Source of the DNA: Candidatus Acidiferrales bacterium
GTDB taxonomy: Bacteria; Vulcanimicrobiota; Vulcanimicrobiia; Vulcanimicrobiales; Vulcanimicrobiaceae
Assembly (NCBI GenBank): GCA_035507275.1
Contig: DATJOG010000005.1
Span: 37,854 to 101,853 of the forward strand
Direction: 5' to 3'
Length of the DNA: 64,000 bases
Part shown: piece after piece, positions 37,388-48,320 of the stretch
Layout: every line of letters starts with the position of its first letter
Numbering within the stretch: position 1 is the stretch's first letter
The notes under the pieces: generated by a model
Database searches by the model: none
What the model was told of the DNA's origin: nothing
What the model saw: the letters and a program-made list of their open reading frames with translations, nothing else
Made by a program: the position numbers and the translations under genes

Positions 37388-38622
37388 TCGCGGTACGTAC
37401 TCCGGAAGCCATCGCGGCGGATTTCCCGATTTTGCACAAGCCGACGTCGCGCGGGAAGCGATTGGTCTATCTCGACTCGGCCGCGACCTCGCAGAAGCCG
37501 CAGGCCGTCATCGACGCACTCGTAACCTACTACACGGAGTACAACGCCAACATTCATCGCGGCGTCTACGAAATCGCCGCGCGCGCAACCGAAGCATTCG
37601 AAGACGCACGCGCAAAAATCGCGCGTTTCATCAATGCCGACACGCGCGAGGTGATTTGGACGCGCAACGCCACCGAGGCGATCAATCTCGTGGGCTACAG
37701 CTGGGGTCTACGCAACGTCAAACCGGGCGACGCGATCCTGACCACGCAGCTCGAACACCACTCGAATCTCGTGCCGTGGCAGCTGCTCGCCGAAAAGACG
37801 GGCGCGACGCTGCGCTTCATCCCGGCCGACGATCGCGGCGTACTCCAGCTCGAGAAGCTCGATGCGCTGCTCGACGGAGCAAAGCTGCTCGCGATCTCGC
37901 ACGTGAGCAACACGCTCGGCACGATCGCGCCGCTCGAGCGCATCGTTCCCATTGCCCGTCGAGCCGGAGCGACGATTCTGGTCGACGGTGCACAGGGCAT
38001 TCCCCACTTGCCGGTCGACGTGCGCGCGCTCGACGTCGATTTCTATGCGTTCAGCGGGCACAAGATGCTCGGCCCGACCGGTATCGGCGTGCTCTACGGC
38101 AAGCGCGCGCTTCTCGAGGCGATGCCGCCGTTTCTCGCCGGCGGCGACATGATCCGTAAGGTCGAGTACGAGCACACCACCTTCAACGATCTGCCGTGGA
38201 AGTTCGAGGCCGGCACGAGCAACATCGCCGACGCGATCGGGCTCGGCGTCGCGGCCGATTATCTCCACGACCTCGGTATGGAGTGGGTGCGCGCCCACGA
38301 GCAAGAGTTGCTCGCTTACGCGCTGGCGCGCCTGGCCCCGCTCGAGTCACGCGGCTTGGCGATATACGGTCCCCGCGACGCGGCGCTCGCGTCGGGCGTG
38401 CTCTCGTTCAATTTTGCCGACGTGCACGCACACGACCTCGCCTCGATCCTCGACACGGAGGGCATCTGCGTACGTGCGGGCCATCACTGCACCATGCCGT
38501 TGATGGAAAAGATGGGCTGGCCGGCAACCGCGCGCGCCTCGTTCTACATCTATAATTCACGCGCCGACATAGATGCGCTCGCCGAGGGCATCGAAAAGGC
38601 GGCGCGCGTTTTTAAAGTGTGA
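37384..38622 (+). CDS. sufS: cysteine desulfurase SufS
   Basis: The start forms an ATGA overlap. It has YLDSAATSQKP, the PLP lysine in FSGHKMLGPTGIG and the catalytic Cys in RAGHHC. Confidence 0.9.
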   Translation: MIAVRTPEAIAADFPILHKPTSRGKRLVYLDSAATSQKPQAVIDALVTYYTEYNANIHRGVYEIAARATEAFEDARAKIARFINADTREVIWTRNATEAINLVGYSWGLRNVKPGDAILTTQLEHHSNLVPWQLLAEKTGATLRFIPADDRGVLQLEKLDALLDGAKLLAISHVSNTLGTIAPLERIVPIARRAGATILVDGAQGIPHLPVDVRALDVDFYAFSGHKMLGPTGIGVLYGKRALLEAMPPFLAGGDMIRKVEYEHTTFNDLPWKFEAGTSNIADAIGLGVAADYLHDLGMEWVRAHEQELLAYALARLAPLESRGLAIYGPRDAALASGVLSFNFADVHAHDLASILDTEGICVRAGHHCTMPLMEKMGWPATARASFYIYNSRADIDALAEGIEKAARVFKV

Positions 38623-39014
38623 GCATGGACGATTTCTATCGGGATTTTATCCTCGACCACTATCGCAACCCGCGCAATTTCGGGCACCTCGAACACCCCT
38701 CGGCCTCGGCCGAGGATCTCAATCCGCTCTGCGGCGACACGATCCGCATGGAGCTCGAAATCCATGACGGCGTCGTACGCGACGTCCGGTTCTCGGGACG
38801 CGGCTGCGCGATCAGCCAGGCCTCGGCCTCGATCTTGACCGAGGAGCTCAAAGGCATGCGTCTCGAGGACGTGGCCAAGCTCTCGAAGGATATCGTGCTC
38901 GAGAACGTCGGCATCGGCATCAGCCCGACGCGCATGAAATGCGCGACGCTCGGTCTGCGCGTCGCTAAGAGTGCCGCCATCGGCGAAATCGCCGGCTGGC
39001 CGGACGAAGAGTAG
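38619..39014 (+). CDS. sufU: SUF-type Fe-S scaffold/sulfur acceptor SufU
   Basis: 131 aa with NPLCGD, GRGCAIS and RMKCATL. The GTG start forms a GTGA overlap; ATG at 38625 is the alternative. Confidence 0.85.
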   Translation: MSMDDFYRDFILDHYRNPRNFGHLEHPSASAEDLNPLCGDTIRMELEIHDGVVRDVRFSGRGCAISQASASILTEELKGMRLEDVAKLSKDIVLENVGIGISPTRMKCATLGLRVAKSAAIGEIAGWPDEE

Positions 39015-39044
39015 ACCTTCGGGCGGGCATCGAATGCCCGGCCG

Positions 39045-39374
39045 ATGCAGCATCACCATTTTACGCCCGGCGAATGGGAGGCGCTTGCAAACGATCCCGA
39101 ATTCGTCGCGCTGCTGCGAGCCCGGCGGCGGTTCATCATCCCGCTGACGATTTTCTTTTTGCTCTTCTATCTCGCGCTGCCGGCCGGAATCGCGCTGGCG
39201 CCCGGCGTGATGAATCGCGCGGTTTTTGAATCCTTGAGCGTCGCGAACCTCTTCGGGTTCGCGCAAATCATCGTGGCGTGGGGACTGCTCGCTCTCTACA
39301 TGCGCGAAGCCCGCTCGTTCGACAAACGCGCGCAGGCTTTGGTCGAGCGCGCCGCCGCGGAGTTCGCCAAGTGA
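39045..39374 (+). CDS. DUF485 (YjcH-like) small membrane protein
   Basis: 109 aa with two TM segments and FVALLRARRRFIIPLTIFFLLFY. It occupies the typical position directly upstream of actP. Confidence 0.75.
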   Translation: MQHHHFTPGEWEALANDPEFVALLRARRRFIIPLTIFFLLFYLALPAGIALAPGVMNRAVFESLSVANLFGFAQIIVAWGLLALYMREARSFDKRAQALVERAAAEFAK

Positions 39375-45288: not shown

Positions 45289-46018
45289 CGTCGAACAACT
45301 CTGGGACGAGGTTCGCGCCGATTGCCGCGAAACGGTTAAAGAAGCCGTCGACATCCATCTGCGCGCATGCGAGCATTGCCAGGAGCTTTATAAGGAGTTC
45401 GAAGGCGTCGCCTATTGCCTCTCCTGCCTGCCCTCGCCGGAGCCGTCCTGCAATCTGACCAAGAAGGTCGTCGAGCACATCGCTCAGATCAAGGCGCGCG
45501 AGCGCACGACGCCGGTCGTGCTTTCGTCGGCGCAGACGCCGATCGGCCGCCTCTACGTCGGCTTCAAGGAAGATCGCATCGCGTACATCGGCATCGACAC
45601 CGGTGAAGCGTTCGAAGCGGTGCGCGCGCGCGTCGAGAGCCGCCTGCGCCGTCCCGTCGTCGCGGGCGAAGCGCCGTTTTGGCTGAGCAAGACGCTCGAG
45701 CAATTCTTCGACACGTGGCGGGTCGACGACCGGGTCGTGGACATCGAGGACTTGACCCCTTTCGAACAGGCGGCGCTCCGGGCGGCAGCTCGGATCCCTC
45801 CGGGTGAGGTGCGCTCCTACTCGTGGGTCGCCTCGCAGATCGGGCGCCCGCGTGCAGCGCGCGCGGTCGGCCAGGTCATGGCCCGCAATCCGCTCCCGCT
45901 GCTTTTCCCGTGCCACCGTGTGGTCGACGCACGAGGCGAACTCCACAACTACGGCTACGGGATCGAGATGAAGGCACGCCTGCTCAAGATGGAAGGCTAC
46001 ATCGCGCGCAAGCTGTAA
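45275..46018 (+). CDS. zf-HC2 (ZAS-type) anti-sigma domain fused to O6-alkylguanine-DNA alkyltransferase (Ogt/MGMT)
   Basis: One 247-aa ORF that overlaps the sigma gene by 14 nt. It has C3...H28-x3-C32-x2-C35 (HLRACEHC) and no TM segment. The C-terminal ~170 aa form an MGMT domain (TPFEQAALRAAARIPPGEVRSYSWVA..RAVGQVMARNPLPLLFPCHRVV). Confidence 0.8.
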   Translation: MRCRDVEQLWDEVRADCRETVKEAVDIHLRACEHCQELYKEFEGVAYCLSCLPSPEPSCNLTKKVVEHIAQIKARERTTPVVLSSAQTPIGRLYVGFKEDRIAYIGIDTGEAFEAVRARVESRLRRPVVAGEAPFWLSKTLEQFFDTWRVDDRVVDIEDLTPFEQAALRAAARIPPGEVRSYSWVASQIGRPRAARAVGQVMARNPLPLLFPCHRVVDARGELHNYGYGIEMKARLLKMEGYIARKL

Positions 46019-46026
46019 CCTAGAGC

Positions 46027-46740
46027 GTGGTGGCTAAACACATCCTCATTGCGGGCTTCGAGCCCTTCTCCGGCGACAAAGTCAACCCCAGCGAGATGGT
46101 TGCCCGCAGTTTCGAGGGCGCGCTGCTAGCCGGGCGTCCCGTCGCGGTACGCGTCATCCCGGTCGAAACGCGCAACATCCACGAGCGCTTCGAGCAAGCG
46201 CTGCTGCAAGACCACCCCGACATCGTGATCCTGCTTTCGCAGTTCGGCGGCCGCACCGCGCTTTCGATCGAGCGCGTCGCCGTCAACGTTCTCGATTTCG
46301 AGGGCGACAACGTCGGCGTCGTTCGCAAGAACGACGTCATTACGCGCGGCGGTCCCGAGGCGCGTATTTCCAATCTGCCGTTCTCGCAGATCGTCGAAGC
46401 GTGGAACGCGGCCGGCGTCCCCGGATACGTCTCCAACACGGCCGGCACGTTCATCGGCAATCAAGCGCTCTACGAGGTGATCGCGATCACCGAAAATGCC
46501 GTGCCGCCCGCAATCGTGGGCCTGGTGCATCTACCCTATCTGCCCGCGCAGGCGATCGCCGCCGGTGCCGAAACGAACCCCTCGATGTCATTCGATGTGA
46601 TGAAAAAAGGCGTCGAGGTCATGGTCGAGACCCTCGTTCCGTGGGTCGACGGCCGCACGCCGGAGGCTACCAAGACTCCACGCCTCGGCGCGAAACCCGG
46701 AGCCTGGATCCCGCGCGGTGTAAAGGAAGTAGAACGCTGA
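46027..46740 (+). CDS. pyroglutamyl-peptidase I (C15) homolog lacking the catalytic cysteine
   Basis: 237 aa with GFEPFSGDKVNPS, the Glu context SIERVAVNV and the His context GLVHLPYLPAQ. The nucleophile motif TAGTFVCN reads TAGTFIGN here. Confidence 0.8.
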   Translation: MVAKHILIAGFEPFSGDKVNPSEMVARSFEGALLAGRPVAVRVIPVETRNIHERFEQALLQDHPDIVILLSQFGGRTALSIERVAVNVLDFEGDNVGVVRKNDVITRGGPEARISNLPFSQIVEAWNAAGVPGYVSNTAGTFIGNQALYEVIAITENAVPPAIVGLVHLPYLPAQAIAAGAETNPSMSFDVMKKGVEVMVETLVPWVDGRTPEATKTPRLGAKPGAWIPRGVKEVER

Positions 46741-48320
46741 GCGACCCTCGTATTGCTGCGATTCCCGATGTGCACGGTCACGCGAAGGGCGAGCACCGCC
46801 CGTTTGCCGAGGAACGGCCGATCGCGTATTCGCCGCGCATGCTCTTTTTGTGGTTCTACCATGCATGCCGGCGCAATTCGCCGCGCTTTCTCATGGTTTC
46901 GGACCATATCAACTATTTGACGTTCGAAGATCCCGGCGCGGTGCATACCGTGCGCCGTGCGCTCAAGCTCGCGCACGCCGGCGATCTCTACGGCGCCGCG
47001 GAGACCGCCGGCGTCGACGTGACTCACGCCGCCGTGGTCGGCGAAAGCTTGCGGCGAGGAATGCGCTTCTCGATCGGCGCTGAGGTCGACAACGATCCAC
47101 GCGCAAGACCGGATGCGCAGAATATCGTGGACGCGATGCGGCCGGACGGAATCATCCGCTCGGTCCATTTCTTGCCGATCGATCATCCGGAGAAGGGGGC
47201 CGACTACATGTGGCCCTACGACAATCCGGAGTTCGCGCATCTCTTCGAGCATGTCGGCGTCGACAAGGTGTGGGAGCTATACACCGCGCGCCTCTTCGAC
47301 GACATCGAGAAACTACCGGGACACGTCGTGGGCCACTTCTATCGCCCCGCCATTCTGGGTCGCTGGCCCGACGAGAAAAAACTCGAGGCCTACGAAGACC
47401 GGCTGCTCGATCTCGCGCACGCGCGCGGGATGGCGGTCGAGATCAGCACGCGCCAGATCTACCGCGCAAGCGACGACGAGCAGCGCGCGAAGTACATCGC
47501 CGCCAACAAGCGCCTGATGCGCAAAGCGCAGGCGCGCGGCGTCGGTATCTCGATCGGCTCGGATGCGCACAGCCCGAAGGATCAGGGCGGAGCCTTCGAC
47601 GTCGTGCTCGCGATGCTCGACGAGTGCGGCATCAACGAGGTCTGCTTTCCGGTGGCCGGACGTCTGGCTCGCGTCGTCTTACGCGCAACGCGCGAACATC
47701 TCGAAGCGCACGCGCAGCGTTCGCCCGAACCGGTACAGCCCGGCAGCAGCATCAGCGGCTTCAGCCGCGCCGAACTCGGCCTTCCCGAAGAGGCCGAGCT
47801 GCAGCCGCGCGCGCGAGAGGGCGCCAAAGGGCGCGAAGCGGGTCCAAAGAAGCGCGCGAGCAGTCCGGAGCGCACGACCAAGAAGCCGACGCCGCCGGCA
47901 GCTCCGGCGAAGTCTTCCTCCAAACGCAGTCCCGAATCGGCAGCTTCTTCGAAAGCCGCGTCCGCAAAAAAGAGCGCCGCGGTGAAAAAAGCCGCTCCGG
48001 TGAAGAAAGCAGCCGATGTTAAGAAGGCCGCGCCCGCTAAGAAGGCGCCGGCCAAGACCGCACCTGCGAAAAAAGCGGCACCCGCGAAGAAGGCGGCACC
48101 CGTAAAGGCAGCGCCCGCAAAGAAGGCGCCCGCGAAAAAGGTGCCCGCAGGTAAGGCGCCCGCGAAAAAGACGCCGGTGAAGAAGGCCGCCGTGAAAAAA
48201 GCGGCGCCCGTCAAGAAAGCTGCGGCGAAGAAAACCGCCGTCAAGAAAGCGAAGCCCGCCGCCAAGCCGGCAGCGAAGAAAAAAGGTTCGACCAAGAAGA
48301 AAACGACCAAACGCCGTTAG
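46737..48320 (+). CDS. PHP-domain phosphoesterase fused to a histone-H1-like Lys/Ala/Pro-rich tail
   Basis: PHP motifs are IPDVHGH, SDHINY, SVHFLP, VGHFY and IGSDAHSP. The tail (~47841-48317) has AAPAKKA/AVKKAAPVKK repeats. The start is uncertain: the only in-frame candidate before DVHGH without a long overlap is the CTG at 46737 (CTGA overlap). Confidence 0.65.
   Translation: MSDPRIAAIPDVHGHAKGEHRPFAEERPIAYSPRMLFLWFYHACRRNSPRFLMVSDHINYLTFEDPGAVHTVRRALKLAHAGDLYGAAETAGVDVTHAAVVGESLRRGMRFSIGAEVDNDPRARPDAQNIVDAMRPDGIIRSVHFLPIDHPEKGADYMWPYDNPEFAHLFEHVGVDKVWELYTARLFDDIEKLPGHVVGHFYRPAILGRWPDEKKLEAYEDRLLDLAHARGMAVEISTRQIYRASDDEQRAKYIAANKRLMRKAQARGVGISIGSDAHSPKDQGGAFDVVLAMLDECGINEVCFPVAGRLARVVLRATREHLEAHAQRSPEPVQPGSSISGFSRAELGLPEEAELQPRAREGAKGREAGPKKRASSPERTTKKPTPPAAPAKSSSKRSPESAASSKAASAKKSAAVKKAAPVKKAADVKKAAPAKKAPAKTAPAKKAAPAKKAAPVKAAPAKKAPAKKVPAGKAPAKKTPVKKAAVKKAAPVKKAAAKKTAVKKAKPAAKPAAKKKGSTKKKTTKRR

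What the first reader, a model, noticed from the sequence alone, without database searches (positions are those of the whole stretch)
46737..48320. PHP phosphoesterase fused to a ~160-aa histone-H1-like Lys/Ala/Pro tail, with no canonical start codon before its first metal motif
Seen in sequence: all PHP His/Asp motifs are present (DVHGH, SDH, VHF, GHF, GSDAH). From ~47841 the protein becomes AKKAAPAKK/AVKKAAPVKK repeats and ends KKKGSTKKKTTKRR. Upstream of DVHGH, the only in-frame start candidate that avoids a ~100-nt overlap with the Pcp-like gene is the CTG at 46737. This forms a CTGA stop/start overlap analogous to the GTGA/ATGA overlaps seen throughout the window.

Established knowledge: such Lys/Ala repeats are non-specific DNA-binding tails (eukaryotic H1, chlamydial Hc1, Pseudomonas AlgP, mycobacterial HupB). 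PHP domains are metal-dependent phosphoesterases, including DNA-end-processing enzymes.

Inference: this is a nucleoid-tethered phosphoesterase, possibly for DNA-end or lesion processing given the MGMT context.
Basis: partly seen in the sequence, partly recalled or inferred. Interest (0 to 1): 0.6.

Follow-up and report, generated by a model that had tools for sequence, protein, structure and literature searches.

The report
Tailed histidinol-phosphatase paralog with CTG start
This gene is a copy of a histidine-pathway phosphatase that has gained a long, strongly positive, histone-like tail and starts at a rare CTG codon; relatives keep the tailed protein even without the histidine pathway, so it probably has a second, non-enzymatic job.

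Summary
The ORF 46737-48320 carries all the PHP metal motifs and a 159-aa tail (31% Lys, 30% Ala, 13% Pro, net +51). No ATG, GTG or TTG gives a start conserved among relatives that retains the conserved residues 2-11.

Comparative data strongly support CTG 46737 as the start codon. That position is CTG in 41 related loci and ATG or GTG in sister clades. Nine or more orthologs have no canonical start after the last in-frame stop. AAGGAAG lies 7 nt upstream and is frozen at pcp-synonymous sites. It persists where pcp is deleted.

The DNA-end-processing idea is not supported. The domain is nearest in sequence and fold to histidinol-phosphate phosphatases. Tail-less relatives (about 52-59% identical) sit inside his operons. 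This genome's his operon lacks that gene, so the tailed protein probably supplies the step.

The tailed proteins sampled form one Eremiobacterota clade. Only 11 of 50 further genomes carrying the gene have IGPD. Where the enzyme is dispensable, ligands H144, H200 and D276 are lost repeatedly (at least 11 events), yet domain and tail stay conserved. This points to a second, tail-dependent role that remains unknown.

It is a new variant of a known kind.

The parts
46737..48320 (+). Coding sequence of the tailed PHP protein (527 aa, CTG start, TAG stop)
   Evidence: Orthologs were found in 319 species genomes.
46737..46739 (+). CTG initiation codon. Its C is the wobble base of the last Arg codon of pcp, and its TG begins the pcp stop TGA
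   Evidence: This position is CTG in all 41 CTG-clade loci and ATG or GTG in sister clades. Orthologs L015, L018/L092, L021, L022, L051, L058, L064, L067 and L099 have no ATG, GTG or TTG between the last in-frame stop and the conserved N-terminal residues.
46723..46729 (+). Shine-Dalgarno-like AAGGAAG, 7 nt upstream of the CTG
   Evidence: It is present at this offset in 37 of 41 CTG loci and shifted by about 1 nt in the rest. Synonymous pcp sites inside and 3' of it (-12, -9, -6, 0) are invariant, while those further upstream vary freely. It is retained in four loci where pcp is deleted. The 16S 3' end is not in the assembly, so pairing could not be checked.
46027..46740 (+). Upstream Pcp-like (Peptidase_C15) gene that overlaps the start by 4 nt (context)
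   Evidence: Pfam E 3e-50. It is present upstream in 32 of 36 CTG loci with enough flank, and in 0 of 42 non-CTG loci.
46737..47720 (+). PHP domain of the HisJ/HisK (histidinol-phosphate phosphatase) type, aa 1-328
   Evidence: AF2 model pLDDT 91.5. Foldseek best hits are 2yxo, 4gyf and 3dcp. NCBIfam PRK07328 gives 1.8e-18, below its cut-off.
46773..46781 (+). HxH metal motif (H13, H15)
   Evidence: Invariant in all 71 orthologs examined.
47556..47570 (+). GSDAH metal motif (D276, H278). The other ligand codons are H57 at 46905, E116 at 47082, H144 at 47166 and H200 at 47334
   Evidence: All ligands are intact in the window. D276, H200 and H144 are lost recurrently in relatives that do not need the enzyme.
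47742..47792 (+). Conserved linker motif GSSISGFSRAELGLPEE between the domain and the tail
   Evidence: Nearly invariant in alignments A1 and A3. Low confidence in the model. Function unknown.
47841..48317 (+). Polycationic Lys/Ala/Pro tail (159 aa, net +51) ending KKKTTKRR
   Evidence: Predicted coil with pLDDT below 50. NCBIfam hist_H1_lk_Burk scores 27 bits, below its cut-off.

Best explanation
The gene is real and is translated from CTG 46737, using the AAGGAAG 7 nt upstream inside the 3' end of pcp.

It encodes a member of an Eremiobacterota-specific clade of tailed paralogs of the PHP-type (HisJ/HisK) histidinol-phosphate phosphatase. In this genome all eight metal ligands are intact. 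The his operon (hisG-C-B-H-F-A/IE-D) has no phosphatase gene of its own. No other PHP-type homolog exists. The protein therefore most likely carries out the histidinol-phosphate to histidinol step.

The disordered tail of charge +51 is a conserved appendage that should bind polyanions. DNA is the most likely partner by analogy with the HupB, Ku, AlgP and PhaF tails. The tail gives the protein a second role that does not depend on catalysis, and this is why the protein is kept in relatives that cannot make histidine.

Shown: gene structure, start position, family relationships, phyletic patterns and ligand patterns. Inferred: the enzyme's substrate, the binding partner of the tail and the nature of the second role.
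For: START CODON
- The aligned codon is CTG in 41 loci and ATG (29) or GTG in sister clades.
- In G023 an in-frame TGA lies 6 nt upstream of the CTG. L015, L018/L092, L022, L051, L058, L064, L067 and L099 have no canonical start before the conserved N-terminus.
- Upstream of the CTG, variation falls on pcp wobble sites. Downstream, it falls on third positions of the PHP frame.
- The -33 codon takes all four first bases, so it is neutral.
- The SD and CTG survive in four loci where pcp is reduced to remnants.

ENZYME
- By sequence, the nearest solved structure is the T. thermophilus histidinol phosphatase (E 1e-12).
- By fold, the best matches are 2yxo (E 1e-13), 4gyf and 3dcp.
- Tail-less relatives of 296-319 aa lie between hisB and hisH, and one is fused to HisH.
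- The window's domain is 58.7% identical to an in-operon copy. The other His enzymes of the two genomes are 46-58% identical.
- Ninety-one positions are conserved and identical in both clades, with one switch.
- This gene is the own genome's only hisJ_fam match (below cut-off); its other PHP matches lie in open frames of 1166, 1087 and 759 aa (taken as DnaE-like, not checked), and its his operon has no phosphatase gene.
- The HAD and IMPase candidates fail the curated HolPase cut-offs.
- All 28 genomes that have IGPD and no in-operon paralog keep every ligand.

SECOND ROLE
- The tailed proteins form one clade with SH-aLRT 98.
- They coexist with the in-operon paralog in three genomes.
- The gene is kept in 39 of 50 genomes that lack IGPD.
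- Ligand losses number at least 11 events, confined to H144, H200 and D276, and all occur where the enzyme is dispensable. Overall identity stays at 82% and the tail persists.
- Tail charge is held at +44 to +63 while tail length varies from 143 to 290 aa.
Against: - No experiment or expression data bear on any of this.
- Scores to the curated HolPase models are far below their cut-offs (47.7 against 90.2; 66.9 against 202).
- The gene lies outside the his operon.
- N237, which is nearly invariant across the family, is Ser in the window and in part of its genus.
- Most genomes with the gene lack the histidine pathway, and 28 of those 43 still keep all ligands. Catalysis may therefore serve another substrate.
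- The link between ligand loss and dispensability is not corrected for phylogeny (Fisher p = 2e-4). The independent-pairs test had only 4-6 pairs.
- IGPD absence in MAGs may partly reflect incompleteness.
- CUG initiates at only 1-2% of AUG in E. coli (bioRxiv 10.1101/063800). This is low for a biosynthetic enzyme.
- Binding of the tail to DNA is an argument from analogy only.
Confidence: 0.55

Rival explanations
1. The PHP domain acts on DNA (3'-phosphate or end cleaning, or lesion processing), is held on the nucleoid by the tail, and works together with the neighbouring MGMT fusion.
For: - The gene lies next to the ECF sigma / anti-sigma::MGMT pair across the whole tailed clade.
- A polycationic tail of the kind known to bind DNA is present (PMC3553676; PMC9239181).
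- Some PHP domains are nucleases (PMC2665239, listed).
- The gene is kept in genomes without the histidine pathway, often with intact ligands.
Against: - HolPases are the best matches in sequence and fold. PolX PHP (3b0x) scores E 2.7e-5, against 1e-13 for 2yxo.
- Only one class-specific residue switch separates this protein from the in-operon HolPases.
- In two distant tailed loci a 400-500-nt gap separates it from the MGMT gene.
- Ligands are lost repeatedly while the protein is kept, so catalysis on DNA cannot be the conserved function.
Confidence: 0.1
2. The tailed protein does not serve histidine biosynthesis in this genome. A HAD-IIIA or IMPase-family enzyme does that step. The tailed PHP protein has only its other role, structural or regulatory, possibly with a different small-molecule substrate.
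For: - The gene is mostly found in genomes without IGPD (39 of 50).
- It coexists with the in-operon paralog in G041-G043.
- The genome has a HAD 'Histidinol-ppas' domain protein above that model's cut-off and a HisN-like IMPase of 167 bits.
- N237 is Ser in the window.
Against: - Ligands are never lost in the 28 genomes that have the pathway and no in-operon paralog.
- The HAD protein scores equally as GmhB, and the IMPase equally as SuhB. Both fall below the HolPase equivalog cut-offs, and neither lies near his genes.
- The window protein has diverged from an in-operon HolPase no more than the other His enzymes have.
Confidence: 0.22
3. The tail does not target DNA. It binds another polyanion, such as polyphosphate granules, RNA or ribosomes, or acidic membranes.
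For: - AlgP has a net charge of +55 and a KPAA tail of similar size, and it localises to polyphosphate granules (PMC9239181).
- Ribosomal protein S20 of this genome also carries such a tail.
- An EF-G paralog lies immediately downstream in 76 of 80 loci.
Against: - In this genome the HU-like protein also carries such a tail, as HupB does in mycobacteria.
- The characterised Lys/Ala/Pro tails bind DNA in vitro (PMC3553676).
- Nothing here distinguishes between the possible partners.
Confidence: 0.15
4. Translation starts elsewhere. One option is the ATG of MLFLWF (46839), as public annotations of the closest relatives assume, which would give a truncated, inactive protein. The other is GTG 46641, with a 100-nt overlap on pcp.
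For: - Gene callers chose MLFLWF, or a later Met (MVSDH), for about 27 of the 120 listed relatives.
- GTG 46641 is a canonical in-frame codon.
- CUG is a weak start codon in E. coli (bioRxiv 10.1101/063800).
Against: - Residues 2-34, which include the HxH motif, are conserved under purifying selection.
- Many relatives have in-frame stops between -96 and 0.
- The region upstream of the CTG evolves in the pcp frame.
Confidence: 0.05

Closest known systems
PHP-type histidinol-phosphate phosphatases (HisJ/HisK: B. subtilis HisJ, L. lactis HisK 4GYF, T. thermophilus 2YXO, Listeria HisK 3DCP)
   Same: It has the same (beta/alpha)7 PHP fold and the full set of trinuclear metal ligands. These are its best sequence and fold matches. 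Tail-less members of its own subfamily sit inside his operons.
   Different: It is only 20-31% identical to the characterised enzymes and scores below the curated cut-offs. It has about 60-80 extra residues, including a three-helix insert at aa 65-106. It carries a 159-aa polycationic tail and lies outside the his operon. Orthologs persist without the pathway and lose ligands.
Lys/Ala/Pro histone-H1-like tails of bacterial proteins (mycobacterial HupB and Ku PAKKA repeats, Pseudomonas AlgP and PhaF KPAA repeats, Chlamydia Hc1/Hc2)
   Same: Composition, repeat style, predicted disorder and net charge all match (+51 here, +55 in AlgP). In these proteins the tail is also appended to a folded domain that has another function (PMC3553676).
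   Different: Here the folded partner is a small-molecule metabolic phosphatase rather than a protein that binds DNA or granules. No HMM reaches its cut-off. Binding has not been tested.
PHP domains that lost catalysis but were kept for a structural role (E. coli DNA polymerase III alpha PHP domain, PMC3666897)
   Same: In about a fifth of the tailed orthologs sampled (15 of 71), metal ligands are replaced while the fold stays conserved.
   Different: In this family the losses are recurrent within one orthologous group and follow the dispensability of a metabolic pathway. The window's own copy is intact.
Non-AUG initiation and 4-nt stop/start overlaps in bacteria (AUU of infC; rare annotated CUG starts; termination-reinitiation coupling, PMC10666635, PMC2268962)
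   Same: It has a near-cognate start with an SD at normal spacing, and an NTGA overlap with the upstream gene.
   Different: CTG is conserved across dozens of species, although any other base at that pcp-synonymous site would give a canonical start. It also persists where pcp is deleted, so coupling is not required.

Membership tests
PHP-type histidinol-phosphate phosphatase (HisJ/HisK, TIGR01856 / PRK07328) | PHP (beta/alpha)7 barrel fold | tested here: met
   AF2 model with pLDDT 91.5 and pTM 0.88. Foldseek gives 2yxo at E 1e-13 with TM(target) 0.73, and 4gyf at 2.5e-9.
PHP-type histidinol-phosphate phosphatase (HisJ/HisK, TIGR01856 / PRK07328) | Complete set of trinuclear metal ligands (HxH, H, E, H, H, DxH) | tested here: met
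   H13, H15, H57, E116, H144, H200, D276 and H278 are all present in the window. The assignment to metal sites is by homology, from memory of the L. lactis structure.
PHP-type histidinol-phosphate phosphatase (HisJ/HisK, TIGR01856 / PRK07328) | Score above the curated family cut-off | tested here: not met
   TIGR01856 scores 47.7 bits against a cut-off of 90.2, PRK07328 scores 66.9 against 202, and Pfam PHP scores 23.3 against 26.4.
PHP-type histidinol-phosphate phosphatase (HisJ/HisK, TIGR01856 / PRK07328) | Genomic or phyletic link to histidine biosynthesis | tested here: inconclusive
   Tail-less subfamily members lie in his operons, and the own his operon lacks a phosphatase gene. However, the window gene is elsewhere, and most genomes carrying the tailed gene lack IGPD.
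PHP-type histidinol-phosphate phosphatase (HisJ/HisK, TIGR01856 / PRK07328) | Hydrolysis of L-histidinol phosphate | not testable with these tools
   This needs an enzyme assay or a complementation test.
Histone-H1-like / Hc1 / AlgP-type Lys-Ala-Pro DNA-binding tails | Lys/Ala/Pro-rich, repetitive, disordered, strongly basic segment | tested here: met
   The tail is 74% K+A+P with net charge +51. It has tandem units and pLDDT below 50.
Histone-H1-like / Hc1 / AlgP-type Lys-Ala-Pro DNA-binding tails | Match to a family model above its cut-off | tested here: not met
   NF038053 scores 27.2 bits against a cut-off of 80. Pfam gives no hit on the tail alone.
Histone-H1-like / Hc1 / AlgP-type Lys-Ala-Pro DNA-binding tails | Non-specific DNA binding | not testable with these tools
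   This needs EMSA and localisation experiments.
DNA-processing PHP enzymes (PolX PHP, DnaE PHP exonuclease) | Closest similarity to nuclease-type PHP domains, or fusion or linkage to polymerase, ligase or Ku | tested here: not met
   3b0x scores E 2.7e-5 with TM 0.27-0.42, well behind the HolPases. The neighbouring genes are sigma, anti-sigma::MGMT, pcp, an EF-G paralog, an SBP and a PRTase.
Bacterial genes initiated at CUG | No canonical start available upstream of conserved coding residues, with the codon conserved and orthologous to AUG or GUG | tested here: met
Bacterial genes initiated at CUG | Direct evidence of initiation (N-terminal peptide, start-site profiling) | not testable with these tools

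The most novel reading that the evidence does not exclude
The tailed protein is primarily a non-enzymatic protein built on a histidinol-phosphatase scaffold. It would be histone-like, or would organise some polyanion. This would be an enzyme caught in transition to a structural or regulatory protein. It would act as the pathway's phosphatase only in lineages, such as this one, that kept the histidine pathway but lost the in-operon copy. Its synthesis would be held low on purpose by a selected CTG start codon.
Probability: 0.35. Interest if true: 0.75.

Novelty: new variant of a known kind. Interest (0 to 1): 0.6.

Why it matters
1. Annotation. Public annotation often truncates this protein at Met35 or a later Met and so removes its first metal motif. 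A conserved CTG start with its own Shine-Dalgarno site corrects a whole gene family in a poorly known phylum. It is also an unusually clean comparative case of a CUG start that appears to be maintained rather than merely tolerated.

2. Enzyme evolution. The family offers a natural series for studying how an enzyme acquires a second function and then sheds catalysis. The series runs from the in-operon enzyme, to a tailed and catalytically intact paralog, to tailed paralogs with recurrent, site-specific ligand loss.

3. Metabolic reconstruction. It identifies the likely missing histidinol phosphatase of Aquilonibacter-like Eremiobacterota.

4. Ecology. The sampling suggests that most of the Eremiobacterota examined lack histidine biosynthesis.

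5. Cell biology. If the tail binds the nucleoid, this would be a metabolic enzyme recruited as a chromatin-like protein in bacteria.

Tried and rejected
- A start at -33 (CTG 46704). Relatives have GTG, TTG, ATG or CTG there, but the varying base is the wobble of a pcp Ala codon. All changes between -33 and 0 are synonymous in pcp and non-synonymous in the PHP frame. Rejected.
- Starts at GTG 46641 or 46401. Many relatives have in-frame stops downstream of these positions. Rejected.
- A -1 frameshift fusion of pcp and PHP. There is no slippery site, and clades and loci without pcp use the same N-terminus. Rejected.
- The tail as a by-product of genome composition. Only 5 ORFs in the genome have such a segment. 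Rejected.
- The opposite-strand ORF 47582-48310. It mirrors the low-complexity repeat and has no support.
- A canonical HisJ in the sister family that might have been displaced. None was found. That family lacks IGPD and HisD altogether.
- Reading the L. lactis HolPase paper for its substrate-contact residues. The paper is not held, so substrate-pocket residues were not scored.
- The 16S anti-SD sequence. The rRNA 3' end is absent from the assembly.
- Pfam search on the tail alone gave no hit.
- The full-length AF2 model gave no confident docking of the linker motif or the tail onto the domain.
- Sequencing-run and read evidence.
Full report
**What is there**

The frame 46401-48320 is open. 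Translated from 46737, it gives a 527-aa protein.

From aa 369 the protein becomes a 159-aa tail with 49 Lys, 48 Ala, 21 Pro and a net charge of +51, ending KKKGSTKKKTTKRR. The tail is encoded by imperfect 15/18/30-nt tandem units. AlphaFold predicts it as coil with pLDDT below 50.

Only five ORFs in the 2.83-Mb genome contain such a segment:
- this gene
- an HU-like protein with a basic tail
- a 79-aa H1-like ORF
- ribosomal protein S20 with a tail
- a secreted Lys-rich protein

The neighbours are an ECF sigma factor, a zinc-finger anti-sigma::MGMT fusion, a Peptidase_C15 (Pcp-like) gene that ends in the CTGA overlap, and an EF-G paralog 11 nt downstream.

**The start codon**

In-frame candidates upstream of the HxH motif are GTG 46401, GTG 46641, CTG 46704, CTG 46737, two ATT codons and GTG 46770. 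I compared 41 genomes of the same class and 80 further species-level genomes (319 species carry the gene, and all those listed are Eremiobacterota/Vulcanimicrobiota).

At the codon aligned with 46737, the 80 loci have CTG 37 times, ATG 29 times and GTG once. The rest start 1-2 codons away. Many orthologs begin M-[ST]-D-P-R-I-A-A-I-P-D-V-H-G-H, where the window reads L-S-D-P-R....

- **No alternative start in some orthologs.** In G023 an in-frame TGA lies 6 nt upstream of the CTG. L015, L018/L092, L022, L051, L058, L064, L067 and L099 have no ATG, GTG or TTG between the last in-frame stop and the conserved N-terminus.
- **The coding frame changes at the CTG.** A per-site tally over 37 CTG loci shows that upstream variation falls on pcp wobble sites (-36, -33, -27, -24, -18, each with three or four bases). 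Downstream variation falls on third positions of the PHP frame.
- **The ribosome-binding region is frozen.** The pcp-synonymous sites at -12, -9, -6 and 0 are invariant. These lie inside AAGGAAG-N7-CTG. The C of CTG is the wobble base of the last Arg codon of pcp, and any other base there would give a canonical start.
- **The site works without pcp.** Four loci (L051, L058, L064, L067) have lost most of pcp but keep AAGGAAG, the spacer and the CTG in what is now intergenic DNA. The site is therefore an autonomous ribosome-binding site and does not depend on termination-reinitiation.
- **The -33 codon is not a start.** Gene callers use it in some relatives, but it takes all four first bases and is simply the wobble of a pcp codon.

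Public annotations of the nearest relatives instead start at MLFLWF (Met35) or a later Met, which deletes the first metal motif. I put the probability that CTG 46737 is the start at about 0.9. CUG initiates at 1-2% of AUG in E. coli (bioRxiv 10.1101/063800), so this start is expected to be weak.

**What the domain is**

- **Model scores.** Pfam PHP, TIGR01856 hisJ_fam and PRK07328 all match but fall below their cut-offs.
- **Solved structures.** The only one found by sequence is the T. thermophilus histidinol phosphatase.
- **Fold.** A confident model (pLDDT 91.5) matches histidinol-phosphate phosphatases best: 2yxo at E 1e-13, L. lactis 4gyf, and Listeria 3dcp/6nlr. PolX PHP and YcdX are far behind.
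- **An isolated family.** Against 1.84 billion representative proteins, 40 hits score below 1e-30. The scores then drop to ordinary HisJ proteins of about 265 aa at roughly 1e-10 and about 30% identity.
- **Two forms within the family.** Lengths are bimodal. Tail-less proteins have 296-319 aa. Tailed proteins have 450-816 aa and all end in K/R-R-R.
- **Tail-less members lie in his operons.** P0263 lies in hisG-hisC-hisB-PHP-hisH-hisA/F-hisIE-hisD, and P0132 is the same domain fused to HisH in that slot.
- **One origin for the tail.** A tree places all 48 tailed sequences in one clade (SH-aLRT 98), nested among the tail-less ones.
- **No visible change of specificity.** Ninety-one positions are conserved and identical in both groups. 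Only one is a class-specific switch, H97 against Q.

**This genome**

Its his operon on contig C11 has the same gene order but no phosphatase gene between hisB and hisH. The window gene is the only homolog of the in-operon phosphatase. It is 58.7% identical to it, and the other His enzymes of the two genomes are 46-58% identical.

The other PHP matches lie in open frames of 1166, 1087 and 759 aa, which I took as DnaE-like without checking. A HAD-IIIA protein and an IMPase exist, but they score no better as histidinol phosphatases than as GmhB or SuhB. Neither lies near his genes. The tailed protein is therefore the best candidate for the histidinol-phosphate step here.

**Evidence for a second role**

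- **Coexistence with the in-operon copy.** Three Eremiobacterota genomes carry both a tail-less in-operon copy and a tailed copy in the sigma / anti-sigma::MGMT context.
- **Conserved neighbourhood.** The order ECF sigma, anti-sigma::MGMT, [pcp], PHP-tail, [EF-G paralog], SBP_bac_5, PRTase holds across the whole tailed clade.
- **A sister family has neither.** It lacks the tailed gene, IGPD and histidinol dehydrogenase in 11 of 11 genomes.
- **The gene outlives the pathway.** Near-closed genomes G022 and G023 lack IGPD and HisD but keep the gene. Only 11 of 50 further genomes carrying the gene have IGPD.

Ligand loss follows dispensability. I scored eight metal ligands in 71 non-redundant orthologs:

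| Genome class | Genomes | With ligand substitutions |
|---|---|---|
| IGPD present, no in-operon paralog | 28 | 0 |
| IGPD absent, or in-operon paralog present | 43 | 15 |

Fisher p = 2e-4, not corrected for phylogeny. The tree needs at least 11 independent losses, and none falls in a lineage where the enzyme is needed. The independent-pairs test is underpowered.

The substitutions are site-specific:
- H200: at least 7 events, mostly to Asn
- D276: at least 8 events
- H144: at least 3 events
- H13, H15, H20, H57, E116, D118, E235, H278: never substituted

The degenerate orthologs are as conserved overall as the intact ones (82% against 82-84% identity to the consensus). They keep the tail, except G022/L022, whose tail frame is broken, so they are not pseudogenes. 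Tail length varies from 143 to 290 aa while net charge stays at +44 to +63.

**Interpretation**

The catalytic function that selection protects looks like the histidinol-phosphatase step. It is strictly kept only where that step is needed from this gene. However, the fold plus the tail is retained for something else.

By analogy with the PAKKA and KPAA tails of Ku, HupB, AlgP and PhaF (PMC3553676; PMC9239181), that second role probably involves binding DNA or another polyanion. Which polyanion, and to what end, is unknown.

**Limits**

- There is no proteomic or biochemical evidence.
- Absence of genes from MAGs is imperfect evidence.
- Substrate-contact residues could not be scored, because the key paper is not held.
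- Earlier first-reader notes record the same architecture in five other genomes, one of them with a non-canonical start. They are consistent with this report but are not independent evidence.

Noticed in passing
L051, L058, L064, L067 (intergenic region between the MGMT gene and the PHP gene); window 46018-46040: In four species the Pcp-like gene is reduced to remnants of its 5' and 3' ends. The motif AACCTTAGCGAAGGTGG, which lies upstream of the PHP gene in clades without pcp, lies upstream of pcp in clades that have it. It looks as if pcp was inserted just after the ancestral PHP start region and was later deleted again in some lineages.
   Followed up: partly
Genomes G030-G040 and 39 of 50 genomes reached through L031-L102: Most of the Eremiobacterota genomes sampled have no IGPD. 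The five of these checked for histidinol dehydrogenase (G018, G022, G023, G032, G037) lack it too. Histidine auxotrophy seems to be widespread in this phylum.
   Followed up: partly
Own genome, contig C40 (minus strand, about 16.7 kb); C27 (about 83.9 kb); C40 (about 102.7 kb): An HU/IHF-like protein carries a Lys/Ala-rich C-terminal tail like that of HupB. There is also a 79-aa ORF that is wholly H1-like, and ribosomal protein S20 has a Lys/Ala/Pro tail.
   Followed up: no
L115/L116 6001-7596 (P0132): A metagenomic his operon encodes the same PHP subfamily domain fused to HisH (glutamine amidotransferase) as a single 531-aa protein.
   Followed up: partly
Own genome, contig C11 19965-21190: hisA and hisIE lie in one continuous open frame, so they may form a HisA-HisIE fusion. 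A second gene similar to histidinol dehydrogenase lies on C39 at 38057-39232.
   Followed up: no
window 47742-47792: A linker motif, GSSISGFSRAELGLPEE, lies between the PHP domain and the tail. It is nearly invariant in the near clades and absent from the most distant tailed members. It could be a short binding motif.
   Followed up: partly
window 47445-47447 (residue 237): Asn237 is nearly invariant in the whole HisJ family, including distant outgroups. It is Ser in the window and in part of its genus.
   Followed up: partly
L080, L093, L096, L022: In four orthologs the tail frame is broken and the ending is Arg- or Gly-rich instead. At least three (L080, L093, L096) come from MFD-series MAGs and may be homopolymer errors in the A-rich Lys codons rather than real changes.
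   Followed up: no
P0003-P0011, P0013, P0017 and others: Public gene calls for the closest relatives start at MLFLWF or MVSDH. This removes the HxH motif, so the family is systematically truncated in annotation wherever no GTG, ATG or TTG happens to lie at -33.
   Followed up: yes
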